From a virus: a stretch of 64,000 nt of DNA. Shown piece by piece: positions 5,165 through 54,330 of this stretch. Below the pieces are notes generated by a model that was not told where the DNA came from, did not search any database, and was given only the letters and a program-made list of their open reading frames with translations. Made by a program: the position numbers and the translations under genes. The stretch is from IMG/VR virus record IMGVR_UViG_3300045988_158973, positions 36,524-100,523 of that record, one strand, 5' to 3'. The number at the start of each line of letters is the position of its first letter. Position 1 is the stretch's first letter.

Positions 5165-5184
5165 GGTGTTATAGGTTTATAAGT

Positions 5185-5236
5185 TTCATTTCCACTACAA
5201 AAGTACTGAATTTTCTCCAAACTACCAAGAGAACCG
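5185..5236 (-). promoter_or_regulatory. promoter cassette P1 (Bacteroidota-type -33/-7)
   Basis: The minus strand reads GGTTCTCTTGG-N20-TACTTTTG(5205..5198)-TAGTGGAAATGAAACT..ATG(5164). TAnnTTTG is a perfect -7 box, with CTTG 20 nt upstream. Confidence 0.6.
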
Positions 5237-5794
5237 TCAAAATTTTATGCCAAAATCCAACGTATATCCCCACTGGTCTTCAACCCTTATAGCTGAAGCG
5301 CCAACCATGAAGCGTTGACGAAAGTCGGCTCCGGCGGAGAACTTTTGCGTACCAAAGTCCACGGACGTTCCTATCTGGGCGTAGCCTTGGATGAAGGGTA
5401 TTCGCTTGTCGATGATGGTGTGTTCTATCTCGTGGATGCGGATCAGCGGCTTGACGTGCGACACGGCCTCCGTAATGGCGTTACGCTGGACAGTGGCGTT
5501 GACGCGGAATTCACCGATACTGTCGTTAGAGAAGTCGAGGTGATACTCCTTGCGCGCCAGATAGTCGGCCAGTAGCGCGGCGGTGTCGATTTCACCCGGT
5601 AGGTAGATGGTGGTGTCGCGGATGATGATTTTCGGGACCGGAACCTTTACCGTATCGCGGTATTCGACCGTGTCGTGCTTTGTACGCCACCTTTCAACGA
5701 CTTTAGGGGGTTCAGGGGTATAAGTACTTCGCCCGAATAAGAACGCGAGAATTAGGGCCACCAAAACGAGGATTATTTGCACTACTGTTTTCAT
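5237..5794 (-). CDS. membrane-anchored protein (185 aa)
   Basis: N-terminal TM helix MKTVVQIILVLVALILAFLF and a beta-rich C-terminal part ending ..YTLDFGIKF. 4-nt overlap with the upstream gene. Confidence 0.6.
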   Translation of the reverse strand: MKTVVQIILVLVALILAFLFGRSTYTPEPPKVVERWRTKHDTVEYRDTVKVPVPKIIIRDTTIYLPGEIDTAALLADYLARKEYHLDFSNDSIGEFRVNATVQRNAITEAVSHVKPLIRIHEIEHTIIDKRIPFIQGYAQIGTSVDFGTQKFSAGADFRQRFMVGASAIRVEDQWGYTLDFGIKF

Positions 5795-6291
5795 GGCCGT
5801 TTTCCGCTTTTGATCATCTCCTCGTAGGCCGTTATGGAGGCTTCGAGTTCGTTGATGCGTCGCTTGTAGTCTTCCGCCGCCTTGTTGGCTTCACGCTCCT
5901 GAGTACGGAACTCTTCCATCAGGCGGTTGTACTTATCACGGTCGGCCTGACGCTGGGCCTCATACTCGTCGCGTATTTTGATGAGTTCGTTACGAAAGTT
6001 CGTCATCATTTCGTTGGATAACTTACGTTCGTTCTGAACCTCTTGGTAGAGGTTGTTGTAGCGTTCCTTCCACCACGACTCCTTTTTGTCCAACTCGGCC
6101 ATCAGCGTATCATAACGGCCTTTCCAGAACTCTTCGCCTTTGAGGTCAGCGTCGGCTTGGCTACAACGTACTTCCTGATCGTATTTCTTACGATCCAGCA
6201 TACGCGCCACAATGGCGTAGCCAATACTGCCCACCCCGAACAGAAGCGAAATTACAGGGAAGATGGTGGTCGTGAAAAGTCCGTCAGCCAT
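5791..6291 (-). CDS. membrane-anchored coiled-coil protein (166 aa); spanin- or holin-accessory-like
   Basis: TM segment IFPVISLLFGVGSIGYAIVA followed by a long E/K/R/Q heptad-like region. Confidence 0.55.
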   Translation of the reverse strand: MADGLFTTTIFPVISLLFGVGSIGYAIVARMLDRKKYDQEVRCSQADADLKGEEFWKGRYDTLMAELDKKESWWKERYNNLYQEVQNERKLSNEMMTNFRNELIKIRDEYEAQRQADRDKYNRLMEEFRTQEREANKAAEDYKRRINELEASITAYEEMIKSGKRP

Positions 6292-6853
6292 TGTGTTTCA
6301 TTCTTTCGTTAATACGTATGCGAGCGGCCTTGGCGGCACGAGCATATGCGTTATAATCGTAATTAGAGCGAAGACACCTCACAATTTCGTCAGCGAATAC
6401 CCGTATAATCCCGTCGCGTGCGCTGAGGTAGGCGTCCATGTCCCCCTCGTTGGTAAGCGTAGCGGGATAGATTATGAGTTTCACCTCCGCGCTAACGCGA
6501 TTGAAGAAACGATACCACTGACGGTCATACGAATCAACGAACAGAAACGACCGCCAACGAATTTGAGGCGTCAAAATATCGTAGTGGTTCGAAAGGTTGT
6601 AGGCAAAGTCCCGCGTTAAAGCCGGGCAAACCCGGTTCAACGTCAAACTGCACCCGTCCTTCTGGTCGGCGAAGAAGTCCACCGCCATGGCTATACCGTA
6701 GGTGCGATGTGGCCGGAAATAATTCCAAACATCGTAAGCGTTGCCGACGACCACTTCGATACGCCGCCGACGCAACTCAGCAGCCAGCGCTTGGATGAAG
6801 CGTCGAGCCTCGGCGTTGAAACGCTTGGATGTTAAATAGACCACCTTGCACAT
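6284..6853 (-). CDS. hypothetical protein with weak MurNAc-LAA (Amidase_3)-like pattern; catalytic residues not evident
   Basis: Segments AVDFFADQ and KLIIYPATLTNEGDMDAYL..IIRVFADEIV resemble the SIHxN and ..E.GF.sN..d...l blocks of Amidase_3. The Zn-ligand His/Glu/His residues are not found. Confidence 0.25.
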   Translation of the reverse strand: MCKVVYLTSKRFNAEARRFIQALAAELRRRRIEVVVGNAYDVWNYFRPHRTYGIAMAVDFFADQKDGCSLTLNRVCPALTRDFAYNLSNHYDILTPQIRWRSFLFVDSYDRQWYRFFNRVSAEVKLIIYPATLTNEGDMDAYLSARDGIIRVFADEIVRCLRSNYDYNAYARAAKAARIRINERMKHNG

Positions 6854-6856
6854 AAC

Positions 6857-8506
6857 TTACGATTGTCGATTGAGAATGTATTTCGTCATCAGCCAATATC
6901 CACGTTCACCTCCATAAAGCGGCATAAAGCGGCAGTTAATGAGGGTCTGATAGCTGGACGCCGACGGCGAACCAATGGTGTTCTGATATACGATAACGGG
7001 CAGCCAAGTGACATAAAGATCTCTGCGAATAATCAACTTGGCAGTATTATTAGGCATACGAACCCAAAAATCCCACATACAATCAGTACGGATATTTTCG
7101 TAGTTTTCAGAAATAGACGGCTCCACGTTTGGTAACGTAACCGTGGCCGCATCATAAAACATACCCGGCTCAATGAACCAATTGGTCGGGTCAGTACCTT
7201 CCCAAACGTTAACGGGATATTGCTTTTCGACTCCGTTGTTTATGAGCGACATAACGTCAACACCTAATTTAGGCTGCGTAACGCTTTGCGGACGAATACT
7301 CTGCGTACGAACCAAGCTATCAGCCACGTAGGGGACGTCATCTACTCCGCCGCCAAACAGCGAGGCCAAGTTGTTGACGATCTTAGCAACAGCCTGATAC
7401 AGATTATCCGTTGGTTTGATCTGGTACGAAGGATTAGGACTGGCCGGGAAGTCGCCTGCGTTACCACCAACAGTAACAGCAGTAGCCTGTCCGTTGAAGT
7501 CTTGGAGGAATTTCTGAAGAATACCGATGGCCTGTTCCACGGTATCACCTGCCTGAGGATAACGCGACTTGTTCGCTGCTGGAGCATACGCAGGCGAAAG
7601 ACTCATGCCGGTACTCAATTTCAGACGGTTGTACCAGCCTTGTATCTTGTTGAGGGCCGTCTTCAAATCATCCTGCGTGGTCAGGTCCTGAGGCGCGGCC
7701 ACCGTAGCTGTTACGGGATTGACCTCGATCAACTTGGCGCCAAAGATCATTGCCGACGAACCGTTCTGCCAGTCGTTGATGATTTTGCTGACGTCAGCAA
7801 AAGCCTTTTCGATGGCCACATAGTCGGCCTTGTATTGCTTGTAGCCGGGGACTTGGGTATCGCCCGTCTGCTCAGAGACGATAACGCCGTTCATCGCTGC
7901 GCTGAAGTCGAAGTACAAGCCGTTGACGAACCCTAACGAGTTCTTACTCGAATTAGACAGCAACGACTTCACCGTTCGCTTCACCAACGTAGGAATGTTG
8001 TTGATGACCCGCATGCCGTACAACACGTCTGCGAGAGCCGGGTTGTCGGTCAGCTGTTGGAACGTGTAGTTGAGTTTCGAGGTCTTTTTGTCAAACGTAG
8101 CGACGATGTTGTCGAAGAAGTAGTTGGTCGATGCCACATACTGAGTCGTCGTACCTTGGCCAGCCAAGTCTTCAACGATGATGTTGTTGAGTTTATCGAC
8201 GTACTGGATGCGCGTTTGCCCCACCACCCAGACCATGGTGTTCCACTGGGCGTCAGCGTCGCGTTTCAGGACATTGTAGAACGCAGCGATAGGTAAGCCG
8301 CCCGGAAGGTTCGCTTTATTGATAAGGTCGTTGAAATCGCCTATTTCGGACACAATCGCCTGCGACATCGGAATCCACTGCCCGAGTGAGGCGTCGTAGT
8401 TCTTGTGGAGTTTGTCGGTGGTGTCGTACCAGATAATCGCCGGATTCGACGGTGGTGTCGTTCCGATGGATATACCTGCTACAGTTCCGACGTCAATAGT
8501 TGCCAT
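6857..8506 (-). CDS. structural protein, possibly tail fibre or receptor-binding (549 aa)
   Basis: The N-terminus TTPPSNPAIIWYDTTDKLHKNYDASLGQWIP resembles phage fibre N-termini. T/S/N/Q-rich. Located downstream of the portal. Confidence 0.3.
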   Translation of the reverse strand: MATIDVGTVAGISIGTTPPSNPAIIWYDTTDKLHKNYDASLGQWIPMSQAIVSEIGDFNDLINKANLPGGLPIAAFYNVLKRDADAQWNTMVWVVGQTRIQYVDKLNNIIVEDLAGQGTTTQYVASTNYFFDNIVATFDKKTSKLNYTFQQLTDNPALADVLYGMRVINNIPTLVKRTVKSLLSNSSKNSLGFVNGLYFDFSAAMNGVIVSEQTGDTQVPGYKQYKADYVAIEKAFADVSKIINDWQNGSSAMIFGAKLIEVNPVTATVAAPQDLTTQDDLKTALNKIQGWYNRLKLSTGMSLSPAYAPAANKSRYPQAGDTVEQAIGILQKFLQDFNGQATAVTVGGNAGDFPASPNPSYQIKPTDNLYQAVAKIVNNLASLFGGGVDDVPYVADSLVRTQSIRPQSVTQPKLGVDVMSLINNGVEKQYPVNVWEGTDPTNWFIEPGMFYDAATVTLPNVEPSISENYENIRTDCMWDFWVRMPNNTAKLIIRRDLYVTWLPVIVYQNTIGSPSASSYQTLINCRFMPLYGGERGYWLMTKYILNRQS

Positions 8507-8519
8507 TGTGCGTTGCGGT

Positions 8520-8777
8520 TTAGCGTGAATATACGTAGGTAGCGCGGTCGGCCCACACGAAATTGTAACTCATGTCGCCAATGGGGTATTCGGTGATGGT
8601 GATTCCGTCGGCGGTAGTCTCACGCTCGATGCGCCACCCGGCTTCGCCTTGGCCCGTACCGATGGGGGCATAGCCGCGGTAGATCACGCTGCCGCCGGAA
8701 GCGTCGATGATAGGCTTGGGCATAGCGTCAGCCAACAGCTGTACGATGGGCGCGGTGTTCTTCTCGTTACTCGTCAT
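8520..8777 (-). CDS. hypothetical small protein (85 aa)
   Basis: Minus-strand ORF overlapping the portal stop by 11 nt. Confidence 0.5.
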   Translation of the reverse strand: MTSNEKNTAPIVQLLADAMPKPIIDASGGSVIYRGYAPIGTGQGEAGWRIERETTADGITITEYPIGDMSYNFVWADRATYVYSR

Positions 8778-10527
8778 GGTTTATTGCTTTTTGTAAGTAT
8801 TCATCGAATGCGGCCACGAGCGGATTTGCCTCACGGGCCTTCATAGTTTCTTCTTCATCGCCTTGGGCGTAGAGATCGAACGGGTTGCCGGCCTGCGCTT
8901 CATCGTCTTCCTCACCTTCGCCGCCAGCCACAGGTTCATCGGCCGGGCCGCCAGCAACCTCCATACCCATACCCGCGGCCTCTTCGAACGGGTTGCCGCC
9001 GCCCATACCACCCATCGCCTGTTGCTGTTGTTGCTTGGCGCTGAGTGCTTGCTGGATGACGGCGTTCTCGATGGTGTCGCCACCCTTTTCTTCGCCGATA
9101 GCCGGGAGGTCCCACTTCTCGCGAATCTCGTCCACGGTCTGGAAGGCTTGAAGGCGTTTGATGTCCATATCCAGCTCTTCGGAAATGGTCATTCCGTTGA
9201 GGCCCATGAATACGAATTCGAAGTCAGGGTTGATTTGCTCGACTATGAATTTGTTGAGTTTACGCTGGATGAACTTCAGCATCGGGTAGAGGCCCTTGTC
9301 CTTGGACTGCTCCATGCGCTGCTTTTGGCCATCGCCGAACGTCAGGCCGCTGCCGTTGGAACGAGAAATGTCCCACCCGATTTCCGTCGGGTCGATACAG
9401 AATACAGCACACGCGATCTTGATCAGGTATTCCATCCACGAGTTGTACTCCATATCGCGGTTGTTCTTCTGGAGATCAACCCAGTCGATATCGCCCTCAA
9501 CGACGGGCGTCTTCCACGACTGCATAACGCCTGATATCATGGCCTGCCACTGCTGCTTGAACTGCTGAAGTGAAGCCTCATTGACGTTACCCTTGATCCG
9601 AAGAAGACCCTTCGGCGCTGATCCTTGAGAGAAGAAGCGGCGGTTGTATTCGTCACCCCAAAGCATCGATGTAACGACGTTAATCAGTTCTTCCAATTCA
9701 GAGTTTCCGTACCCGTTGGCGTAGATCGACGTGGTCGGGTTGCGTATACCGAAGCACAACTCCCACGGATAGAACTGCGCCACCTTGGCTGTTTGGTACA
9801 CCTGAACGTAGGCCGGATAATAGCCATCAACCTTTGGACCCCAGTTTTGGCGGTCATCCATCATAGCGCCGTCAAAATACGGGTTGTTGTATTCACCGTC
9901 GAAGTACGATTCAGCCAACCGGAACGTCGCAGCATCGACGGCTTGAAACCGTACCAGTTTGCCGCGGCGGTTACGAATGCACTCAAACGTCATCTGGTCG
10001 AACGTCAACGAGTCGTCAACGATTTTACGAATAAACTCGTCAAACTCGTCGCCGTCCCAAGTGGCGGTATCACCGCAATTGAGAATGAAGTCGGTGATGG
10101 AGGCCGCAATCTTGCGGTCTTGAGAATCCATCTTCTGCTCTTGGCCGAATTTCGGTTTACGACGAATGACGAATCCCGTAGAATAGCGGTCGGCCTGTGG
10201 TTCGGCAAAGTCGGCTATTTGGTTCTTGCGGGTCTTGAGGATTGAGTTGATGATGGGGGTGCGGCTCATCCGGCGCAGTGTCTCATACGAGAGCGAAAAC
10301 GGCTTATCCTTATACCCCAAAAACGAATTGAACTCCAAAGGATCGATCAAGTACGCCTTCGGGGCAACGTTAGCAGGCTTGGATTGCTGATTGAATATTT
10401 CAGCGGCTTTGAGTATATCGGACGGGTTGTCGCTGCTCAACGCACGCTCTACCAACAGCGACTTGCGTATTGTTAGAGCCTGCATGGCACGTTCCACCGA
10501 TTCCAATCTTTCTTTTACACCGGACAT
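8767..10527 (-). CDS. portal protein
   Basis: 586 aa. The central region ..YANGYGNSELEELINVVTSMLWGDEYNRRFFSQGSAPKGLL.. and ..NSWMEYLIKIACAVFCIDPTEIG.. is typical of phage portals. Acidic Gly-rich C-terminal tail. Confidence 0.75.
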   Translation of the reverse strand: MSGVKERLESVERAMQALTIRKSLLVERALSSDNPSDILKAAEIFNQQSKPANVAPKAYLIDPLEFNSFLGYKDKPFSLSYETLRRMSRTPIINSILKTRKNQIADFAEPQADRYSTGFVIRRKPKFGQEQKMDSQDRKIAASITDFILNCGDTATWDGDEFDEFIRKIVDDSLTFDQMTFECIRNRRGKLVRFQAVDAATFRLAESYFDGEYNNPYFDGAMMDDRQNWGPKVDGYYPAYVQVYQTAKVAQFYPWELCFGIRNPTTSIYANGYGNSELEELINVVTSMLWGDEYNRRFFSQGSAPKGLLRIKGNVNEASLQQFKQQWQAMISGVMQSWKTPVVEGDIDWVDLQKNNRDMEYNSWMEYLIKIACAVFCIDPTEIGWDISRSNGSGLTFGDGQKQRMEQSKDKGLYPMLKFIQRKLNKFIVEQINPDFEFVFMGLNGMTISEELDMDIKRLQAFQTVDEIREKWDLPAIGEEKGGDTIENAVIQQALSAKQQQQQAMGGMGGGNPFEEAAGMGMEVAGGPADEPVAGGEGEEDDEAQAGNPFDLYAQGDEEETMKAREANPLVAAFDEYLQKAINHDE

Positions 10528-22115: not shown

Positions 22116-22777
22116 TTTACAAAGAAGAGACCGCCGCGGGAGCGCTTACGCAATCGGTTTAATGCCTTCTCCGACGTGGCGGCGGACATCTTTGATCTCC
22201 CGCGGCGGTTATCCGCGTTTCTCTCTTCTAAAAGAAACACCCAAGTTAACAAGAGCAGCGACCTATTGCGGTTCCCCTTTTGCCGGCCGGGCGTCCACTG
22301 GTAGTTAACCTTGGGTGTTAATTTCGTCAGGGAGTTAACGTGTCCCTGATTCTCACACGGTCTTCGGGACGATCCTCGGAGTTTACTTCAGGTTCATCAC
22401 CCTGTATCACTCCTCTTTCTGGACGACGATCCAGCGAGTGTTCATTTTGCCGTGCTGCCACTCGTCAGCGCTGGTTGAGATGGAAGGATTCGAACCTCCA
22501 ACGCGAGAACCAAAATCTCGTGTGTTACCATTACACCACACCTCAAAATGAGGGATCGGACTGCGGCGTCCGTTATACTCTATCCCTCGGTTCGAGTCTG
22601 TCTCCTCCGCTCCGGCGCTCGCTATGGAGGAAGTCTGCGTTGCTGCCTTGGAGACAATTTGGTTGACCTTTTGGCCCGTTAGAAACTACAGAACGCCAAC
22701 TGGAAAAGAACTACACTAACTGCTAAACCTCATTTCGTCACTTGGCATAAGTCGGCGTATCGCTCGTTTCAGGTAGT
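22116..22777 (-). ncRNA. candidate large structured RNA enclosing tRNA-Gln (class unknown)
   Basis: No minus-strand ORF of 60 aa or more. There are many long perfect helices, for example 22130-22142/22197-22209 (13 bp) and 22236-22250/22304-22319 (15 bp with a bulge). A promoter-like motif lies at the 5' side. Confidence 0.4.
22472..22545 (-). tRNA. tRNA-Gln: tRNA-Gln (anticodon UUG), CCA encoded
   Basis: Manual cloverleaf: TGAGGTG TG GTGT AATGGTA ACAC A CGAGA TTTTGGT TCTCG CGTT GGAGG TTCGAAT CCTTC CATCTCA A CCA. 74 nt, with a U1-A72 pair as in bacterial tRNA-Gln. Confidence 0.85.
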
Positions 22778-47923: not shown

Positions 47924-48574
47924 TTAAATTATGTTATTTTGTAAAGCGTTTACGGCTTCGCGCGGTACATAAAGCGTGTGTACAGTATCAAATACATCAG
48001 CCACTTCACACGCATTTTGTAACGTTGTCACTGCTTTCCGGAAATTGTCGTTACAGTACGGAAGCAGATTCAACGGCCATGAACGGTTCCCCATGGAGAG
48101 TTCGCGGTTCAGGAAATACAACAGCGCCATCCAGTCTGCCACCTTCACCACCGCATGAGTGATATCGTAATACTCACCCGTCTTGGAGAGAGTTTGAAGT
48201 ACCTCTGAATCCGCGCCAAAGTCATCCGCCATCTGGTGTTCGACGAACTTATCGAGTGCGTATCGTATTTCCATGCCATTGTAGGCGTTGTATTTCACCT
48301 CGTGAGTGATGTCACGACGCAAAATGGCTTCATCGAAGTCGTGCATCAGCGCCACTTTCAACGTTCGGTACTTGAAAGCCAATACGGCGTTAGTTTCAGT
48401 CCCCGTAGGCCAAAAGTAGTCCAGTAGGCTCATTGTGAAGACCGACACCTTGAACGAGTGCTGCGAAACACTCTCCTGCTGATGGCGGTCGTATTCCAGC
48501 CACTGCTTGATGTTGTCCAGCCGCGCCAAATAATCGCGATTGAACAGTTTTGTTAAATCCCCTTTGATTCCCAT
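47924..48574 (-). CDS. HD-domain 5'-deoxynucleotidase (YfbR-like)
   Basis: ESVSQHSFKVSVF, ALMHDFDEAILRRDITHEVKY and VKVADWMALLYFLNRELSMGN align block by block with E. coli YfbR ([54 protein letters not shown]). Confidence 0.75.
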   Translation of the reverse strand: MGIKGDLTKLFNRDYLARLDNIKQWLEYDRHQQESVSQHSFKVSVFTMSLLDYFWPTGTETNAVLAFKYRTLKVALMHDFDEAILRRDITHEVKYNAYNGMEIRYALDKFVEHQMADDFGADSEVLQTLSKTGEYYDITHAVVKVADWMALLYFLNRELSMGNRSWPLNLLPYCNDNFRKAVTTLQNACEVADVFDTVHTLYVPREAVNALQNNII

Positions 48575-48589
48575 AACGATATTGTTTAA

Positions 48590-50635
48590 CTATTGCAGTA
48601 TTTCTAACCTTGTAGATGGTGAAGACTGCACGGTTTTCTTTCCAGCGAAGTAATTCACACGCCCCGTAACAGCCACAACGCGGTTCAGCAGCGTGGCTTC
48701 AGTTTCTGACTGGTGAAGCCAAAAATCGGACCACAACGTGACCTGTATGATAAGGTCGTTCACCTCCAACTGAAGAACGCCATATGCGTCACCTCGCTTG
48801 GTTTGGCGCTCAAATACGTTGTTCACTCGCCCCACAATACACACTTCGTCGCCTTCGTTCTTGCGTTCGAATTCCGGCGCGGTAACATACAGTCGAACCA
48901 TTCGTTTTCCGAGCCCATATTCGTTCATCATACGCTCGTAGTCTACTTCTCCGTACCCGGTTAATTCACGCTGTTTGAAGACCCACCAAGCGTTGGTATG
49001 GGCATCTGGCGTATCGTACTCTTCGGGGAGTGGTTCGCCGCGGCGGTCGAGATACTGTTTAACGATATCCAGCCGTTGGCGTGGATTGCGTATACCCTCT
49101 ACGAGGTCAAACGCTCCGGCGGTTATGAGCCGCAGCACCACGGTACGATTAATACCCTTTGGTGCAGATGTTATGAAGTCTTCAAACGAAAACACTTCGC
49201 CGTGTTCTTGCTTCATAGCCTTCAAAAACGAAAGAGCACGTTCGCCAATTCCCTTCACCTTCCCCAAGGAGAAGAATATACGGTTCGTCGTTGGGTCACA
49301 CGTGAAGGTTTCATCTGAGAAGTTGATGTCTGGTGGACGAACTTCAATGCCAGCTCCAGTCTTCTTCATTTCCACCAACCGATACGGAATATCTGATTCT
49401 TTTGAAGCGTACTGGAGTGACGTTGTCCAAAACTCCAACGGATAATTGACCTTGAACCACTGCGACCAATACGACATCATGGTATAGGCTACGGCATGAC
49501 TCTTGTTAAATCCATAGCCTGAAAAGGCCAGCAGTTTGGACCAAACCTCATCGGCTTTTTCTTCCGTTCGCTCTTTTATTCCCGATTCGCGCAACAAGGC
49601 TGAATACCCTTCACGGAACTTACCATGGAACGATTCGATAAGGTCCATATTTTTCTTCTTGATAGCCGTACGAAGTATATCGGACTCTACAGGACTTAAA
49701 CCTCCAACGACCACGGCTTTCATGATTTGCTCTTGGTAGGTATACAACGAGTATGTATCACGCGTGATTTCCTCCATGCCGGGGTCGAATTTAGGCTTCT
49801 TGCGTCCGTTCTTGATTTCAACAAACGTTTCGTGTGCCTTAACATCCATAGGACCTGGACGGAACAGCGCCGTCATAGCGATCAGGTCGTCAAGCGTATG
49901 CGGCTTGGCTTCGCGGCAGTAGTTCATAAGTCCCATAGCGCCAAACTGGAATACATCCTCGCACCATCCACGCTGGAAATACCGGAACACCTCTTCGTCG
50001 CCGAACGGAATAGTGTTGACGTCAATATGCTGTTTACGGTTCTTGGCTATCAACTTTATGATCGACGAGAATTTATCCAACTGGTTAAGCCCCAGAATAT
50101 CCTCTTTCAAGAAGCCTGACTTGTCGATGTACTTACCTTCCCACTCCGACACCAACGTGTCTCCCATGCGCTTTATAGGCATCCAGCTGTAAAGGTCCAT
50201 AGGGTTTCCGTTTTCATCTTCCTTTGGTACGATGATAACAGCCGACGGGTGAACCGAGCCTGTCTTACATTGCGTAAGAGCGTATTTCGTCATATGTACC
50301 AACTCCGGATGATCTTGAACGAAACGGAACAATTCCCGCGACGTAGCGGCGTAATTGAACAGGTCGCCCCATGTGTATTCGATTTGGTCGTCGATGTCCT
50401 TGGTGAGTTTATTCATCACCGCAAACGGTACGCCCATGACCTTGCCGAAGTCCTTCAGACATGTCTTCAGTTTCATGCGCGTATAGGTACCAACCGAGCA
50501 CACATGATTAGCGCCATAACGTCGCGACATGTATTCTTTCACCGTATCGCGAAACGCTACAGGGAAGTCGCAATCCACGTCCGGCATGCTGTCCTGACGG
50601 GCAATTTCAACCTTTTCTATCTTTAGAATTTTCAT
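48590..50635 (-). CDS. dnaE: DNA polymerase III alpha (DnaE) C-terminal fragment: palm catalytic motif, fingers, OB domain
   Basis: Begins MKILKIEKVEIARQDSMPDVDCDF.., where PDxDxDF is the Pol III alpha catalytic motif. Also ..FRPGPMD.. and ..FNKSHAVAYT... The first in-frame ATG at 50635 forms an ATGA overlap with the HEG stop. The track's 50662 start is a TTG. Confidence 0.8.
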   Translation of the reverse strand: MKILKIEKVEIARQDSMPDVDCDFPVAFRDTVKEYMSRRYGANHVCSVGTYTRMKLKTCLKDFGKVMGVPFAVMNKLTKDIDDQIEYTWGDLFNYAATSRELFRFVQDHPELVHMTKYALTQCKTGSVHPSAVIIVPKEDENGNPMDLYSWMPIKRMGDTLVSEWEGKYIDKSGFLKEDILGLNQLDKFSSIIKLIAKNRKQHIDVNTIPFGDEEVFRYFQRGWCEDVFQFGAMGLMNYCREAKPHTLDDLIAMTALFRPGPMDVKAHETFVEIKNGRKKPKFDPGMEEITRDTYSLYTYQEQIMKAVVVGGLSPVESDILRTAIKKKNMDLIESFHGKFREGYSALLRESGIKERTEEKADEVWSKLLAFSGYGFNKSHAVAYTMMSYWSQWFKVNYPLEFWTTSLQYASKESDIPYRLVEMKKTGAGIEVRPPDINFSDETFTCDPTTNRIFFSLGKVKGIGERALSFLKAMKQEHGEVFSFEDFITSAPKGINRTVVLRLITAGAFDLVEGIRNPRQRLDIVKQYLDRRGEPLPEEYDTPDAHTNAWWVFKQRELTGYGEVDYERMMNEYGLGKRMVRLYVTAPEFERKNEGDEVCIVGRVNNVFERQTKRGDAYGVLQLEVNDLIIQVTLWSDFWLHQSETEATLLNRVVAVTGRVNYFAGKKTVQSSPSTRLEILQ

Positions 50636-51542
50636 TTCTTTCTTGGTTTCATGCCATACCAAAATCCATCAGGGAGCGGAGCGCCCTTTGGGATAGTAGT
50701 GTTTATTTCGCCGTTAGTTATCCTAACTTTGCCTTGCATGGGATTCGTGTACCCGTGCTCGTATCTATCGCGTATTTTCTTACCAAAATCCCTGCGCCGT
50801 TCCTCGGGCCAACGGTTATTCCAGTTAGGGTTATTTTCACCATTATAACGACCTCTCATTTTAGCCGACAAGTTCGCTTTTTGTTCGGCTGTCCATCGGT
50901 TGCCGTAGTTTGGATTCTTTTCGCCTACATATCTGCCTTTCAAGGACTTCGAAATTCTTTCCTTGTAGTCAGTATTGTCCAAAGTAATTTGGCGTTTTTG
51001 GTGAATTCGCTTCATTAACTCTGGACGATTCTTGAACGTCTTTTTAAGCGACCTTGAAACCTTAACAGCGACCTCTGGAATCAACATCGGCGAACCGCTT
51101 CCAAACTGGTTAGCCGTACCCGGTAGGATGTTATATCCTATACCCTTTTCAGTAGAACGTAGCTTCTTGATGTAAAGCATCTCCCAAGCGTCGAGTTGTA
51201 GCTGGGTATCACACACGCGGAGCGTTTCACGTTTGAAATTCTCAGGGCCGTAATACCTAACAGCATTCGTCAAGGATACGCCGCTACCCAAATACCCATC
51301 AAACTCGTCTGTTTTGCAGTGGTGTTGGCCGATGTAAATCTTACCGTTGACGAGGTTCGTAGTTTTGTAAATTATACCTTGCATAAAGTCCGTAATTTAT
51401 CAATATCTATGTCCAGGTCTATATTTGATAAATCACAGTCTATGTCTATTTCTTTACCGTTTCGAAGAGGAATCTTGACATTTTCAGGTAATCTAAATTT
51501 ACCATATCCCTCTATTTCCAAATCCCAATACTTAGGAACGGT
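50594..51542 (-). mobile_element. ~950-nt insertion splitting dnaE (HEG cassette; free-standing HEG favoured over group I intron)
   Basis: It lies exactly between the codons for FERFLNETRV (ending at 51543) and DSMPDVDCDF (from 50593). Those residues are contiguous in unsplit Pol III alpha (FERFLNPERVSMPDFDVDF in E. coli). Confidence 0.7.
50632..51384 (-). CDS. GIY-YIG homing endonuclease with NUMOD3-type repeats
   Basis: GIIYKTTNLVNGKIYIGQ...YLGSG (GIY-YIG). Repeated GEKNPNYGNRWT and GENNPNWNNRWP modules. Visibly more AT-rich than the neighbouring genes. Confidence 0.85.
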   Translation of the reverse strand: MQGIIYKTTNLVNGKIYIGQHHCKTDEFDGYLGSGVSLTNAVRYYGPENFKRETLRVCDTQLQLDAWEMLYIKKLRSTEKGIGYNILPGTANQFGSGSPMLIPEVAVKVSRSLKKTFKNRPELMKRIHQKRQITLDNTDYKERISKSLKGRYVGEKNPNYGNRWTAEQKANLSAKMRGRYNGENNPNWNNRWPEERRRDFGKKIRDRYEHGYTNPMQGKVRITNGEINTTIPKGAPLPDGFWYGMKPRKK

Positions 51543-53075
51543 AACGCGCGTTTCATTCAAGAAACGTTCGAACATCAGGTGGTATTTCAGCGGGTCCACG
51601 TCCGTGATGTACAGGCAATACGCAATCAACGAACCGCACACTGAACCACGGCCCGATCCAGTCATGATACCTTGTTCGCGACACCAGTTCATGATATCCC
51701 AAAGGATCATGAAATAATCACACAACCCGTTAGGGACGATAATGGCACATTCCTTCTCCAACTCGTTTAGATAGCGATCAAGGTCATCGACCTTACCTAC
51801 CAGCCGTTCCTGAACGCCCGCTTCCAGTTTCTCAAAGAAAGCGTCTTCAACCGTAGTTTTTACAAACTCATATTTCGGAAGATGACGTATGCCGGTGGGT
51901 ATCTTAAAGTCAATACTGTCCGTCAACGTCGTGGAATTGGTCATTCCATCAATTATCTTTTCGTAAAGGGGCGCGGCTCCGTCCATCCACTCTTCGTAGG
52001 CTAAAATCGTCTCTTTTGAGTTTTTGAAGTATTGCGTCGCACTTTCAGCATTTACAACCCCTGCCACCTTATTCAACAACGACTTCAGAGGCGCTTCTTC
52101 AGCGTCCAAGTAGTACGAATCGTTGATGACCAACGGCAGCGCGTCACGGTATAGCTTCATCTTGCGGCACCGTAAGACGTAGGTGTCCAAGTTTTCGAGG
52201 TGGTCACGGAAAAGACTTTCCGACGCATATTCGACGGTATCGATCTGGTAATATACTCGATCGAACGCTGCATGGTATGCCGTCAGCAGGCGCTTACACC
52301 GATCTAAATCACCCTTGAAATAATTCAGTTCCGAATCCGACGGTATGACACACGCCAGTCCGTCGCCCAGTTTGTAAAGTTCTTCCGCAGGGATGAATCC
52401 TTGATAATCGACGTTGATGGCCTTATTTACCAACAACAAGTTACGCCATCCGGCGGCGTTCATGACGTATAGTTTCAGCGAGAACGTTTCCTGAATTTCC
52501 ACCGCCGGGTCGTAGTTACACGCCACCGTAATGGTCTCGCCGATGATAGGTTTAACACCTTTAGCCAAGCACGCAGTCTGGAAAGCCAGCGTTCCGGCCA
52601 GCGTGTTGCGGTCACATATACCCAACGCCGTCATACGGTTGAACCGAGCCTTCGTAGCCCACTCATCGCAATTCGAAGAGCCGTTCAAGAACTCGTACTC
52701 GCTGTGGACACCGAGGTGTACAAACGGCACCAGTTCTTCAGCCGTACTCGTACCAAGGTACTTGAAGTCGCGGAATTCAGGGCGAAATACCACGGTTTTA
52801 TCCAACCGCAGGTGATCCTTTTTGATGTTCGAGTAGTAGAACTTTCCACCAAACTCGAATAGGATATATTTTACAACGCCGTCATACAAGGCGTCAAATT
52901 CGTCGGCCGTTACCGCAAACGAGAAGCGTTCGTCGATTATCTTTCCCTTATCGTCGGGGTGTAGGTACAAAAAGTCCCCCACACCTTCAATTGAAATTAC
53001 GTTCAGTTCGTCGTCGCGCTTTTCTTCAATAGCCAAATAATTATCATCAGCCCAACGGCGTAGTGCGTCAGTCAT
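51372..53075 (-). CDS. dnaE: DNA polymerase III alpha (DnaE) N-terminal fragment: PHP domain and start of palm
   Basis: ALGICDRNTLAGTLAFQTACLAKGVKPIIGE (PHP) and GSGRGSVCGSLIAYCLYITDVDPLKYHLMFERFLNETR. A 56-aa non-homologous AT-rich tail follows before the stop. Confidence 0.8.
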   Translation of the reverse strand: MTDALRRWADDNYLAIEEKRDDELNVISIEGVGDFLYLHPDDKGKIIDERFSFAVTADEFDALYDGVVKYILFEFGGKFYYSNIKKDHLRLDKTVVFRPEFRDFKYLGTSTAEELVPFVHLGVHSEYEFLNGSSNCDEWATKARFNRMTALGICDRNTLAGTLAFQTACLAKGVKPIIGETITVACNYDPAVEIQETFSLKLYVMNAAGWRNLLLVNKAINVDYQGFIPAEELYKLGDGLACVIPSDSELNYFKGDLDRCKRLLTAYHAAFDRVYYQIDTVEYASESLFRDHLENLDTYVLRCRKMKLYRDALPLVINDSYYLDAEEAPLKSLLNKVAGVVNAESATQYFKNSKETILAYEEWMDGAAPLYEKIIDGMTNSTTLTDSIDFKIPTGIRHLPKYEFVKTTVEDAFFEKLEAGVQERLVGKVDDLDRYLNELEKECAIIVPNGLCDYFMILWDIMNWCREQGIMTGSGRGSVCGSLIAYCLYITDVDPLKYHLMFERFLNETRVTVPKYWDLEIEGYGKFRLPENVKIPLRNGKEIDIDCDLSNIDLDIDIDKLRTLCKV

Positions 53076-53076
53076 T

Positions 53077-54303
53077 TTACAACAATTTACTGGGTTCTGC
53101 GTTAGATAACCTTGCTTCGAAGAAGTTTCTCGCCAGCATCATGTAGTCCCACTTTTCGTCGGCTTCACAGCTGGTGTTGATAAGGCCTAACAGCCCGTGA
53201 CATTCGTTCAACAGCTGATCGCGGTCTTCGCCGAGACACGCATGGCGGTTACGCTTGTAAAAGACGTACAGTTTCAGCAACTCGTACACACCCCAAAAGT
53301 AAGTCGACTTCTCCAGCACATACTGCTCAAACCCCGCTTCGTCGTCGGGGTCAGTACCGTTAGTGTTACGATGAAGCAGCCGGGAGATCAGTTCGTCCAT
53401 GAAGGCCGTTATTTCACGCAAACGGTTTACCGCCACTTCAGATTCGAACTTGAAGTCCATCATATAGGCAACGCCGCCTTCGCGAACGTTGTAAATACTG
53501 CTCCGCGCTTCGTCAGCCATGAATAATTTCGCCATTTGTTCAGCGGTTTTATTCCACTCGTAGATGTGTAACGACTGCGAGTTATGGGTCTGAACACCCA
53601 ACTCAATTCCTAAACAAAGGGACATTATCTCCGTCAGGAACGAGAACTGAAAGATGTTCGTAGGAAGGCCCCAGTGGAGGTCATTCGAGCGATTCTGAAT
53701 AGTGGTAACGAGTTTGCCGTTGCGTATCTTGAGCATCACCATGTCGTTACAGGGCAAGTCTTTCGACTTCACGCCCAAATCGAAGCGGGGGTTCCAAATC
53801 GACATCACCACCTGTCGCGTTTCGGGATCAGCCGACAACAGCCGCACAGCCTCGCTCACCTGGTCAAAGCCGGGGTCCATCGACTCGCTCTCAGAAGCTA
53901 TTCCCCAATGACGCAAACGCCATCCATAAGGGGCGTGAAACGTTTCGCCATTGTCAGAAAAATCAGCCATCTTGCTGTTGAAGATCGTCAAAAATTCAAC
54001 ATCCTTGCGGCCTGTAGCTATCCACATGGCTTCAGCCAGCAGGAAGAATATATTGATGTTGCGGCCATACCCTCCCACACACCGACGGTACGGGTTGTTG
54101 ACGATGGTCTTAACGTCTAAAAGTTCACGAACGTTACCACCGCGCGAAGGGTTCAGCGGGAGATTATTCATCATCAATTTGTTGATGTAGGGATATACCT
54201 CCGCAAACGACCCCCATGTATCAGTAAACGCGACGCGTCTTTCGAAGTTAAAATCAAAGCGACTCAAGCCCACAGCGTCTTGGGAAATAGACTCTTGTTT
54301 CAT
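53077..54303 (-). CDS. thymidylate synthase-superfamily enzyme (ThyA homologue or dUMP hydroxymethylase) with ~130-aa C-terminal extension
   Basis: DLPCNDMVMLKIRNGKLVTTIQNRSNDLHWGLPTNIFQFSFL..SLHIYEWN aligns with E. coli [49 protein letters not shown]. The catalytic Cys and the dUMP-specifying Asn are present. The start is set to ATG 54303. Confidence 0.8.
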   Translation of the reverse strand: MKQESISQDAVGLSRFDFNFERRVAFTDTWGSFAEVYPYINKLMMNNLPLNPSRGGNVRELLDVKTIVNNPYRRCVGGYGRNINIFFLLAEAMWIATGRKDVEFLTIFNSKMADFSDNGETFHAPYGWRLRHWGIASESESMDPGFDQVSEAVRLLSADPETRQVVMSIWNPRFDLGVKSKDLPCNDMVMLKIRNGKLVTTIQNRSNDLHWGLPTNIFQFSFLTEIMSLCLGIELGVQTHNSQSLHIYEWNKTAEQMAKLFMADEARSSIYNVREGGVAYMMDFKFESEVAVNRLREITAFMDELISRLLHRNTNGTDPDDEAGFEQYVLEKSTYFWGVYELLKLYVFYKRNRHACLGEDRDQLLNECHGLLGLINTSCEADEKWDYMMLARNFFEARLSNAEPSKLL

Positions 54304-54330
54304 ATCTGGAATCAATTTTATACGCCCTTA

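What the first reader, a model, noticed from the sequence alone, without database searches (positions are those of the whole stretch)
48590..53075. Pol III alpha (DnaE) gene split into two translationally coupled ORFs by a GIY-YIG homing endonuclease gene
The N fragment (567 aa, PHP domain) ends its homology at FERFLNETRV. The C fragment resumes at DSMPDVDCDF. In unsplit DnaE these residues are contiguous (FERFLNPERVSMPDFDVDF), so the cut lies a few residues before the catalytic Asp pair.

The 250-aa GIY-YIG/NUMOD3 gene sits in between. Its ATG overlaps the N-fragment stop region by 13 nt. Its TGA overlaps the first in-frame ATG of the C fragment (ATGA at 50635-50632). This three-ORF coupling argues for a free-standing HEG and a two-piece polymerase.

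An in-frame splice is formally possible, with a 5' splice site after ..GTT (51543) and a 3' splice site after ..CAG (50594). However, I see no internal guide sequence, and only ~40 nt follow the HEG.

Either outcome is interesting. One is a replicative polymerase assembled from two polypeptides across its active site. The other is an unusual HEG-dominated intron.
Basis: partly seen in the sequence, partly recalled or inferred. Interest (0 to 1): 0.7.

Follow-up and report, generated by a model that had tools for sequence, protein, structure and literature searches.

The report
Phage polymerase gene split by mobile cassette
A phage replicative DNA polymerase gene is cut in two, just before its catalytic aspartates, by a mobile cassette holding a homing endonuclease gene and two short, strongly conserved peptide extensions that look like leftovers of a split intein and probably hold the two halves together without splicing.

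Summary
On the minus strand there are three overlapping ORFs: DnaE-N (567 aa), a GIY-YIG endonuclease (250 aa) and DnaE-C (681 aa from ATG 50635).

It is not an intron.
- Rfam finds nothing.
- The 56-aa "tail" of DnaE-N and the 14-aa "head" of DnaE-C evolve as protein (dN/dS about 0.01).
- Relatives keep the same split with no endonuclease and 0-61 nt between the halves.

It is not a working intein. Cys1, TxxH, the terminal Asn and the +1 nucleophile are all absent, and tail plus head total only about 70 aa.

Near-identical phages (97-100% DNA identity in the flanks) carry an unsplit 1186-aa dnaE. The roughly 930-nt cassette (tail, endonuclease, head) is 98-100% identical to one sitting in a dnaE background only about 80% identical. 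So it moved as a unit.

The tail resembles the block-B half of split inteins:
- hhalign P about 1e-5 to 1e-6, with 0 of 200 shuffles reaching the real score;
- PDB profile hits to the Npu DnaE and gp41-1 inteins;
- the best Foldseek TM-score is to Npu IntN.

Tails are acidic and heads basic in every variant.

Best reading: a two-piece polymerase held together by a degenerate, non-splicing split-intein remnant. This is a new variant of the Aeh1 NrdA/mobE and "fractured gene" arrangements.

The parts
51543..53075 (-). DnaE N fragment, polymerase part (aa 1-511): PHP domain plus the first part of the palm/NTPase domain, ending ...FERFLNETRV
   Evidence: Pfam PF02811 and PF07733 positions 5-109. 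It is 98% identical to aa 1-512 of the unsplit 1186-aa DnaE of L018. dN/dS is 0.036 against split allele L007.
51375..51542 (-). Tail: 56-aa C-terminal extension of the N fragment (TVPKYWDLEIEGYGKFRLPENVKIPLRNGKEIDIDCDLSNIDLDIDIDKLRTLCKV). The stop codon is at 51374..51372. Net acidic, beta-rich, resembles intein block B.
   Evidence: Absent from unsplit alleles. GC is 32.9% against 49% for the gene. There are 21-25 synonymous against 3 non-synonymous differences to L007, dN/dS 0.014. AF2 gives pLDDT 76.5 with four strands and a helix. hhalign to split inteins gives P 2e-6 to 3e-5, and 0 of 200 shuffles reach the real score. PDB profile hits to the Npu DnaE and gp41-1 inteins. Best Foldseek TM-score 0.56 to Npu IntN 4qfq_A.
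51382..51444 (-). RNA hairpin within the tail-coding sequence. Its base pairs with the endonuclease AUG (51384..51382).
   Evidence: MFE -18.2 kcal/mol, z -2.7, 2 of 200 shuffles fold as well. In L007 a U:A pair is replaced by C:G and an A:U by G:U. L020 has a different hairpin that also covers its AUG.
50632..51384 (-). Free-standing GIY-YIG/NUMOD3 homing endonuclease gene, 250 aa
   Evidence: PHROG 314 E 4e-29. Pfam SegE_GIY-YIG, NUMOD3 and GIY-YIG just below cutoffs. tblastn hits Seg-like endonucleases of T4-like phages. 99.6% identical in L005, L009 and L010 despite about 80% identical flanks. dN/dS 0.063.
50594..50635 (-). Head: 14-aa N-terminal extension of the C fragment (MKILKIEKVEIARQ), net basic. 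Its ATG overlaps the endonuclease TGA.
   Evidence: A conserved MK(I/V).K(I/V).(V/I)K.. head is present in every split allele, with or without an endonuclease. 0 non-synonymous against 4 synonymous changes to L007. Charge is +1 to +5 in all 10 variants. KILKIE is identical to residues 5-10 of gp41-1 IntC; that intein sequence was checked against 6qaz_A.
48590..50593 (-). DnaE C fragment, polymerase part (aa 15-681): the catalytic strand DSMPDVDCDF (Asp equivalents D19 and D21), the rest of the palm, fingers and HhH
   Evidence: Pfam PF07733 positions 98-260, PF17657 and PF14579. 99% identical to the unsplit L018. dN/dS 0.052 against L007.

Best explanation
The phage's replicative polymerase gene dnaE has been invaded by a mobile cassette of about 930 nt. 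The invasion site is four homologous residues before the catalytic Asp pair. The cassette has three parts:
1. a 56-codon tail fused to the upstream half;
2. a free-standing GIY-YIG homing endonuclease gene;
3. a 14-codon head fused to the downstream half.

The two halves are translated as separate polypeptides of about 65 and 78 kDa. They are not joined by RNA splicing or by protein splicing.

The tail and head are the 'antidote' carried by the cassette. They descend from the part of a split intein that flanks the canonical endonuclease-insertion and split site: the block-B half of IntN and the first strand of IntC. They have lost every catalytic residue and the other half of the HINT fold.

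The acidic tail and the basic head most likely pair with each other. The model for this is the charge-zipper 'capture' step of split inteins. This would dock the two halves and rebuild the palm active site non-covalently.

The endonuclease presumably cuts unsplit dnaE alleles in co-infecting relatives. Repair then copies the whole cassette into them. Its own translation is probably damped by a hairpin that buries its AUG.

Shown here:
- the gene layout;
- coding constraint on tail and head;
- movement of the cassette as a unit;
- survival of the split after endonuclease loss;
- sequence and model similarity of the tail to inteins;
- absence of splicing residues.

Inferred: physical tail-head pairing, activity of the two-piece enzyme, and the endonuclease's target.
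For: Layout and overlaps.

Unsplit alleles. An 1186-aa dnaE reading ...NETRV-SGERAKSA-DSLPDIDCDF occurs in L014, L015, L018, L019 and L023 at 88-98% aa identity, and in six relatives at about 55%.

Mobility.
- Window flanks are 97-100% DNA-identical to the unsplit L018.
- The cassette is 98-100% identical to that of L009, whose flanks are only about 80% identical.
- Switch-over tracts are about 100 nt upstream and about 30-60 nt downstream.
- Tail GC is 33% against 49% for the gene.

Function as protein.
- Tail dN/dS 0.014.
- Head: 0 non-synonymous against 4 synonymous changes.
- N core 0.036 and C core 0.052, between two split alleles.

At least three diverged tail/head families share one pattern (alignment A1). 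Tails are acidic (-1 to -8) and heads basic (+1 to +5) in 10 of 10 variants.

The split persists without an endonuclease in L012, L013, L024, L029, L033, L034 and in the cultured Cellulophaga phages phi13:1, phiST and phi19:2. L012 still holds the last ~50 nt of an L020-type endonuclease ORF. In phi13:1 the two pieces are the only annotated DNA polymerase.

Intein ancestry.
- The PDB profile search lists the Npu DnaE and gp41-1 split inteins in 9 of 26 hits, at intein residues about 47-98.
- hhalign gives 73-90% probability, P 2e-6 to 3e-5. The real score is 30.8 against 8.8 +/- 2.2 for column shuffles (maximum 20.2, 0 of 200).
- The AF2 tail model has pLDDT 76.5. Its best TM-scores (0.56 and 0.55, rmsd 2.8-2.9 A) are to Npu IntN.
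- The intein sequences used were verified against PDB chains.

A tail-profile search of 1.84 billion representative proteins finds the tail only at the C-termini of split DnaE N fragments.

Precedents.
- Essential charged tails in Aeh1 NrdA-a/NrdA-b (PMC3045599).
- The charge zipper at the split site of gp41-1 and Npu inteins (bioRxiv 10.1101/546465).
Against:
- The intein similarity covers only about 30 tail residues. It is individually weak (PDB E 0.05-0.8). No Foldseek hit is statistically significant (all E > 1).
- The head-IntC resemblance rests on a short motif.
- AF2 predicts a helix, not a strand, for the tail's last residues when modelled in isolation.
- In the Aeh1 precedent the tails were not needed for heterodimer formation but for higher-order assembly. 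The tails here could act differently too.
- Synonymous sites are near saturation (pS about 0.65), so the dN/dS values are rough.
- The endonuclease's target and activity are untested.
Confidence: 0.7

Rival explanations
1. The tail and head are functional but do not bind each other. Each would contact the polymerase body or another replisome partner, or stabilise its own half. The Aeh1 NrdA tails are a model: they promote higher-order assembly rather than heterodimer formation.
For: In the Aeh1 precedent the tails are dispensable for the a/b heterodimer. AF2 folds the tail on its own with the same strands in two runs. No data here show direct tail-head contact.
Against: Opposite charges occur in all 10 variants. 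Tail and head flank exactly the canonical intein split site, where the IntN and IntC strands pair. Tail and head types are always inherited together.
Confidence: 0.18
2. The extensions are a minimal, non-canonical split intein that still ligates the two halves by protein trans-splicing, giving a single DnaE.
For: The tail is similar to inteins. The arrangement matches 'fractured genes', which include DnaE loci with true split inteins. A true intein occurs elsewhere in the same gene in relatives.
Against: - Position 1 of the tail is T, E, K, S, G or A in different variants.
- TxxH is replaced (PENV, RDGD, KKGE).
- Heads end in Q, V, L or T followed by an invariant Asp. There is no Asn and no Cys/Ser/Thr at +1.
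- Tail plus head are about 60-70 aa, against 125 aa or more for the smallest known inteins.
Confidence: 0.04
3. A self-splicing intron dominated by the endonuclease ORF (group I or other) is removed from the mRNA, restoring one dnaE reading frame.
For: An in-frame junction after ..GTT (51543) and after ..CAG (50594) is formally possible, with a U before the 5' site and a G before the 3' site.
Against: - No Rfam match at E<=10 in 50300-51800 and none at gathering score in the whole window.
- The putative 5' intron part is under protein-level purifying selection: 21-25 synonymous against 3 non-synonymous changes.
- Endonuclease-free split alleles have overlapping or abutting ORFs with no room for an intron.
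- The C fragment has its own conserved ATG and head in all variants.
Confidence: 0.02
4. The endonuclease insertion simply killed dnaE. The pieces are decaying pseudogenes and the phage replicates with another polymerase.
For: None specific. No activity data exist for the two-piece enzyme.
Against: Both halves, the tail and the head are under strong purifying selection between two split alleles. The split is kept in lineages as far apart as cultured Cellulophaga phages (about 32-35% aa identity), where the two pieces are the only annotated DNA polymerase.
Confidence: 0.02

Closest known systems
Aeromonas phage Aeh1 nrdA-a / mobE / nrdA-b: 'genes in pieces' with essential tails (Friedrich et al. 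2007; Crona et al. 2011, PMC3045599)
   Same: - An essential replication-related enzyme is split next to active-site residues by a free-standing homing endonuclease gene.
- Each half carries a short, unique, oppositely charged extension absent from unsplit homologues.
- The insert has low GC.
- The endonuclease ORF overlaps the downstream half.
- Endonuclease translation is probably limited by RNA structure.
- There is no RNA or protein splicing.
   Different: - The host gene is DnaE (Pol III alpha) rather than NrdA, and the endonuclease is GIY-YIG rather than HNH.
- Charge polarity is reversed: the tail is acidic and the head basic.
- The tails here form a conserved family with at least three diverged types across distant phages.
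- They are shown to travel with the endonuclease as one cassette between alleles.
- They show detectable similarity to split inteins. Crona et al. only raised intein ancestry as a possibility.
'Fractured genes': split inteins with a free-standing endonuclease gene between the halves (Dassa et al. 2009, PMC2677866), including three DnaE loci
   Same: - The gene order is host-N plus IntN-like extension, free-standing endonuclease, then IntC-like extension plus host-C.
- The origin is phage or metagenomic.
- The two extensions have complementary charge.
- The tail aligns to the block-B region of these inteins (gp41-1, Npu DnaE).
   Different: - All catalytic residues are missing here: Cys1, Thr/His of block B, the terminal Asn and the +1 nucleophile.
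- About half of the HINT fold is missing (about 70 aa against 125-160 aa).
- The product must therefore stay in two pieces.
[quoted passage not shown] I could not check whether one of them equals this site.
Cyanobacterial split DnaE intein (Ssp/Npu DnaE)
   Same: Pol III alpha is encoded as two polypeptides with intein-type extensions. The N part is acidic and the C part basic. The tail model superposes best on Npu IntN.
   Different: - The cyanobacterial halves are at separate loci.
- Their insertion site is different, at about residue 774 by my own recollection.
- They are covalently ligated by a fully active 138-aa intein.
Phage T4 gene 39 / mobA / gene 60 and split gp43 polymerases of T4-like Aeromonas phages
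   Same: Replication enzymes are split by free-standing endonuclease insertions and work as multi-chain enzymes. Crona et al. noted tail-like extensions on gp39 and gp60.
   Different: The enzymes are different (topoisomerase II, family B polymerase). T4 gene 60 adds ribosomal bypassing. No intein-like tails have been reported; the gp43 case rests on my own knowledge and was not checked here.

Membership tests
Group I intron carrying a homing endonuclease ORF | Conserved catalytic RNA core recognisable by covariance models | tested here: not met
   Rfam 15: no match at E<=10 in 50300-51800 and none at gathering score in the window.
Group I intron carrying a homing endonuclease ORF | Sequence outside the endonuclease ORF is non-coding RNA, and the host frame is restored only by splicing | tested here: not met
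   The 5' flank is a 56-codon in-frame tail with dN/dS 0.014. The C fragment has its own conserved ATG. Endonuclease-less alleles leave 0-61 nt between the ORFs.
Canonical (split) intein / 'fractured gene' sensu Dassa et al. 2009 | Nucleophile (Cys/Ser) at intein position 1 | tested here: not met
   The first tail residue is T, E, K, S, G or A in different variants.
Canonical (split) intein / 'fractured gene' sensu Dassa et al. 2009 | Block B TxxH motif | tested here: not met
   In the hhalign alignment Npu ATKDHKF faces LPENVKI in the window tail. Aligning the other tail types by eye with A1 puts FRDGDKI (type c) and KKGENIK (type b) at the same place. Neither T nor H is conserved.
Canonical (split) intein / 'fractured gene' sensu Dassa et al. 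2009 | C-terminal (His-)Asn followed by Cys/Ser/Thr at +1 | tested here: not met
   Heads end ...ARQ|D...YFV|D...FFL|D or ...FYT|D. The next residue is an invariant Asp of the host.
Canonical (split) intein / 'fractured gene' sensu Dassa et al. 2009 | Complete HINT fold (two C2-related units, at least ~125 aa) | tested here: not met
   Tail plus head are 59-70 aa. The similarity covers only intein residues about 47-98. The smallest known intein, gp41-1, has 125 aa.
Canonical (split) intein / 'fractured gene' sensu Dassa et al. 2009 | Free-standing endonuclease gene between IntN- and IntC-bearing halves, with charge complementarity of the halves | tested here: met
Genes-in-pieces by a free-standing endonuclease with tail 'antidote' (Aeh1 NrdA type) | Essential gene split into adjacent ORFs by a free-standing endonuclease gene, while close relatives have the intact gene | tested here: met
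Genes-in-pieces by a free-standing endonuclease with tail 'antidote' (Aeh1 NrdA type) | Unique, oppositely charged terminal extensions that came in with the insert | tested here: met
   The extensions are absent from unsplit alleles. They were co-transferred with the endonuclease. GC is 33%. Charges are opposite.
Genes-in-pieces by a free-standing endonuclease with tail 'antidote' (Aeh1 NrdA type) | Tails required for activity of the reassembled enzyme | not testable with these tools
   There is only indirect support: dN/dS 0.014 for the tail, and no non-synonymous change in the head.
GIY-YIG homing endonuclease | GIY-(10-11 aa)-YIG catalytic module plus a NUMOD-type DNA-binding region | tested here: met
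   GIIYKTTNLVNGKIYIGQ at aa 3-20. PHROG 314 E 4e-29. Pfam PF19835 scores 23.6 bits against a 25 cutoff, and NUMOD3 19.8 against 20.4.
GIY-YIG homing endonuclease | Site-specific cleavage of the endonuclease-less allele and homing | not testable with these tools
   Population evidence only: transfer of the cassette with short co-conversion tracts.

The most novel reading that the evidence does not exclude
The tail and head together form a 'half-HINT'. This would be one of the two symmetry-related units of an intein, still split at the canonical endonuclease-insertion site. It would have been stripped of all splicing chemistry and kept solely as a high-affinity, charge-zippered heterodimerisation module. 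It would travel with a homing endonuclease as a self-contained 'cut the gene and glue the protein' cassette. That would be direct evidence that split inteins can decay into non-covalent assembly domains. It would also be a natural minimal protein-association tag.
Probability: 0.5. Interest if true: 0.72.

Novelty: new variant of a known kind. Interest (0 to 1): 0.6.

Why it matters
Replicative polymerases are normally single chains through the palm active site. Here a Pol III alpha is cut four residues before its catalytic aspartates and still appears to be under strong selection in both halves.

The case links two known but separate phenomena:
- endonuclease-made 'genes in pieces' with tail antidotes (Aeh1 NrdA);
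- 'fractured genes' with split inteins.

The tails look like an intein that has lost splicing and half its fold. Crona et al. proposed this origin without sequence evidence.

The population data give an unusually complete picture of the element's life cycle:
- empty alleles;
- three cassette types;
- different endonucleases in the same slot;
- endonuclease-deleted fossils;
- a true intein and a second endonuclease split in the same gene.

The split also exists in cultured Cellulophaga phages, so the two-chain polymerase and the tail-head interaction can be tested directly. If the ~70-residue module binds tightly without reacting, it could be used as a small orthogonal heterodimerisation tag.

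Tried and rejected
- **Group I intron.** Rfam in 'evalue' mode on 50300-51800 gave nothing. Rejected, also on coding-constraint grounds.
- **Megablast of the locus against GenBank phages.** No match. The phage is only distantly related (about 32% aa) to Chryseobacterium, Cellulophaga and Bacteroides phages.
- **Pfam on eight tail+head constructs.** Only noise, with weak SH3-like hints at E>0.03.
- **The search for homologous proteins with a fused junction query.** It returned only fragments under 400 aa and no cis (unsplit, tail-containing) form.
- **1.84-billion-protein profile search.** It also found no cis form. The long repetitive proteins among its hits are spurious LTLSNG-type repeats.
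- **Foldseek of the tail model.** No significant hit. Only the TM ranking points to Npu IntN.
- **AF2 of N aa 395-567.** The polymerase part was poor (pLDDT below 60). It only confirmed the tail's strands.
- **L003 (MT835494) Cys-starting tail against the intein profile.** Weak, P 0.002. Left open.
- **First C-core dN/dS.** It was wrong because of an indel and was redone on a protein-guided alignment.
- **Promoter and terminator scan.** Nothing informative.
- **Hairpin at the endonuclease/C-fragment junction.** Not significant, z -1.6.

Full report
**1. The observation**

The minus strand of 48590-53075 holds three ORFs exactly as described.
- A 567-aa ORF (53075..51372) carries a PHP domain and profile positions 5-109 of the Pol III alpha NTPase/palm domain.
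- A 250-aa ORF (51384..50632) lies between the two polymerase pieces.
- A downstream ORF carries positions 98-260 of the same palm domain, the finger domain and HhH.

The middle ORF reads GIIYKTTNLVNGKIYIGQ. It hits PHROG 314 'homing endonuclease' at E 4e-29. It sits just under the Pfam cutoffs for SegE_GIY-YIG, NUMOD3 and GIY-YIG.

Its ATG overlaps the last 13 nt of the upstream ORF. Its TGA overlaps the ATG at 50635. The ORF listing offers a longer C ORF from TTG 50662. Every relative, including those without an endonuclease, begins at the conserved MK(I/V).K ATG, so 50635 is the start.

Homology to intact DnaE stops at ...FERFLNETRV (aa 511) and resumes at D15 SMPDVDCDF. D19 and D21 correspond to the two catalytic aspartates of the PD.D.DF strand. 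That residue assignment comes from established knowledge of E. coli Pol III alpha (D401, D403).

**2. Relatives define what was inserted**

A scan of IMG/VR with the N fragment returned 37 loci.
- Five loci at 88-98% aa identity (L014, L015, L018, L019, L023) and six at about 55% have an uninterrupted dnaE (1186 aa in the four complete close copies). It reads ...NETRV-SGERAKSA-DSLPDIDCDF.
- The others are split at exactly this point.

In the window the eight codons SGERAKSA are replaced by three things: 56 tail codons, the endonuclease gene and 14 head codons.

Along the gene, the window is 97-100% DNA-identical to the unsplit L018 on both sides. From gene position about 1552 to 2483 it is 98-100% identical to L009, whose flanks are only about 80% identical to the window. 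The switch happens within about 100 nt upstream and about 30-60 nt downstream.

So the tail, endonuclease and head moved together into an L018-like gene with short co-conversion tracts. This is the footprint expected of endonuclease-driven homing. The tail is also compositionally foreign, at 33% GC against 49% for the gene.

**3. Not an intron**

- Rfam finds nothing at E<=10 in 50300-51800.
- Between the window and L007 the tail has 21-25 synonymous but only 3 non-synonymous differences (dN/dS 0.014).
- The head has 4 synonymous and no non-synonymous differences.
- This is tighter than the polymerase cores (0.036 and 0.052) and the endonuclease (0.063).
- Several split alleles have no endonuclease. 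Their two ORFs overlap, abut or lie 61 nt apart: L029, L033, L034, L012, L013, L024 and Cellulophaga phage phi13:1.
- L012 still contains the last ~50 nt of an L020-type endonuclease ORF, so it is a deletion derivative.

The split therefore outlives the endonuclease, and an RNA-splicing model has nothing to splice.

**4. Not a working intein, but intein-derived**

At least three diverged tail/head families exist:
- TVPK[YF]W... with head MKILKIEKVEIARQ;
- EPETIFTVELENGD... with head MKIKKVEKISVARQ;
- SA[HR]H.Y.LT[LM].DG... with head MKVK.V.VK.F..

They share one pattern (alignment A1; more tails).

None of the splicing residues is conserved.
- The first tail residue varies (T, E, K, S, G, A).
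- TxxH is gone.
- Heads run straight into an invariant host Asp, with no Asn and no +1 nucleophile.
- Tail plus head total 59-70 aa. The smallest known intein, gp41-1, has 125.

Several independent lines nevertheless tie the tail to split inteins.
- A profile of A1 searched against PDB sequences returns the Npu DnaE and gp41-1 split inteins in 9 of its 26 hits. All align to intein residues about 47-98 (E 0.05-0.8).
- hhalign against six split inteins gives 73% probability, P 3e-5.
- hhalign against a set trimmed to the block-B/split-site region, plus the true intein found in L005, gives 83-90%, P 2e-6 to 9e-6.
- The real score is 30.8. For 200 column-shuffled controls it is 8.8 +/- 2.2, with a maximum of 20.2.
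- The Npu and gp41-1 sequences I supplied were verified as identical to PDB chains 2keq_A and 6qaz_A.
- An AF2 model of the tail (pLDDT 76.5) has four short strands and a terminal helix. The pattern is reproduced in a longer construct.
- Foldseek finds nothing statistically significant. The best superpositions in the list are the IntN chains 4qfq_A and 4lx3_A of the Npu DnaE split intein (TM 0.56 and 0.55, rmsd 2.8-2.9 A over 43-46 columns).
- The head's KILKIE is identical to residues 5-10 of gp41-1 IntC.

[quoted passage not shown] The natural split and endonuclease-insertion site lies inside the second unit. Oppositely charged strands there form a 'charge zipper', which is thought to start split-intein assembly (bioRxiv 10.1101/546465).

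The tail/head pair corresponds to that region. Tails are net acidic (-1 to -8) and heads net basic (+1 to +5) in all ten variants examined.

**5. Mechanism proposed**

The polymerase is made as two chains. The tail and head are a degenerate split-intein remnant retained for association only. They most likely pair with each other and dock the halves so that the palm re-forms.

This step is inferred. In the Aeh1 precedent the tails act at a different assembly step.

Two observations support function of the two-piece enzyme.
- Both halves are under strong purifying selection between split alleles.
- In the cultured Cellulophaga phage phi13:1 the homologous two pieces are the only annotated DNA polymerase.

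The endonuclease AUG is paired at the base of a hairpin (51382-51444; z -2.7). L007 shows one compensatory U:A to C:G change and one A:U to G:U change in it. L020 has a different hairpin that also covers its AUG. Known phage endonuclease genes are regulated in a similar way, as noted by Dassa et al. and Crona et al..

**6. Comparison and novelty**

The closest known system is Aeh1 nrdA-a/mobE/nrdA-b. There, short charged tails that came in with the endonuclease are essential. The authors speculated that they might be degenerate intein remnants (PMC3045599).

The gene order equals the 'fractured genes' of Dassa et al., which include three DnaE loci. Those carry complete, catalytically competent split inteins (PMC2677866).

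Literature searches found no description of this DnaE split or of non-splicing intein-derived tails.

A tail-profile search of 1.84 billion representative proteins finds the tail only at the C-termini of split DnaE N fragments, about a dozen clusters. It never occurs in cis.

I rate it a new variant of a known kind.

**7. Context**

The same gene in relatives is a hot spot for mobile elements.
- A true 265-aa HNH-containing intein sits at GYGFNK|SHA.
- A second GIY-YIG endonuclease splits the gene near aa 863.

Neither is in the window.

Noticed in passing
L005 ~9578-10372 (also L004, L016, L022, L024); not in the window: Relatives carry a bona fide 265-aa intein with an HNH domain in the C half of dnaE, at GYGFNK|SHA. 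It starts CLSGDE, has block B CTANH and ends VVTCN|S. It hits PDB DnaB inteins at E 3e-9.
   Followed up: partly
L016 and L021, 8564-9490: A second free-standing GIY-YIG endonuclease (308-aa open frame; 62% identical to the window's over aa 1-177) splits dnaE near aa 863. These alleles are unsplit at the first site. Their extensions are short and different (...MNLDKKKEQV* and MGLSRKEAEK...).
   Followed up: partly
L003 = MT835494.1 (human gut phage), 3824-9400: dnaE is split at the same site, but the ~100-aa tail begins with Cys (CGLSWKDELTV...). A DNA methylase gene and an HNH/NUMOD4-like gene lie between the halves. No IntC-like ending is visible on the C fragment. This may be a less reduced or independent intein remnant.
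   Followed up: partly
L012 7696-7759 versus L020: The 61-nt spacer of the endonuclease-less allele consists of the first 10-11 nt after the N-fragment stop plus the last ~50 nt of the L020-type endonuclease ORF. It is an internal deletion fossil.
   Followed up: yes
L034 3400-3405: The N-fragment stop codon is followed directly, and in the same frame, by the C-fragment ATG. Stop-codon read-through would give a fused protein.
   Followed up: no
window 51382-51470 (minus): The tail contains D-I-D-x-D runs (EIDIDCDL, IDLDIDIDKL) that resemble the catalytic strand PDVDCDF. The self-complementary GAT/ATC-type codons of these runs form the hairpin over the endonuclease AUG. It is unclear whether the motif is kept for the protein, the RNA or both.
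   Followed up: partly
window 53077-54315 and 47924-48574 (minus): dnaE is flanked by a 412-aa thymidylate-synthase-family ORF (Pfam E 9e-23, unusually long) and a YfbR-like HD 5'-deoxynucleotidase. This hints at a nucleotide-modification or salvage module.
   Followed up: no
window 22472-22545 (minus): A single tRNA-Gln (anticodon TTG). It is the only Rfam or ARAGORN hit in the window.
   Followed up: no
Foldseek list for model m46a9a28cda8c: The T4 topoisomerase II central domain (8yo3_C) appears with TMq 0.46. That enzyme is itself split by the mobA endonuclease in T4. This is probably coincidence.
   Followed up: no
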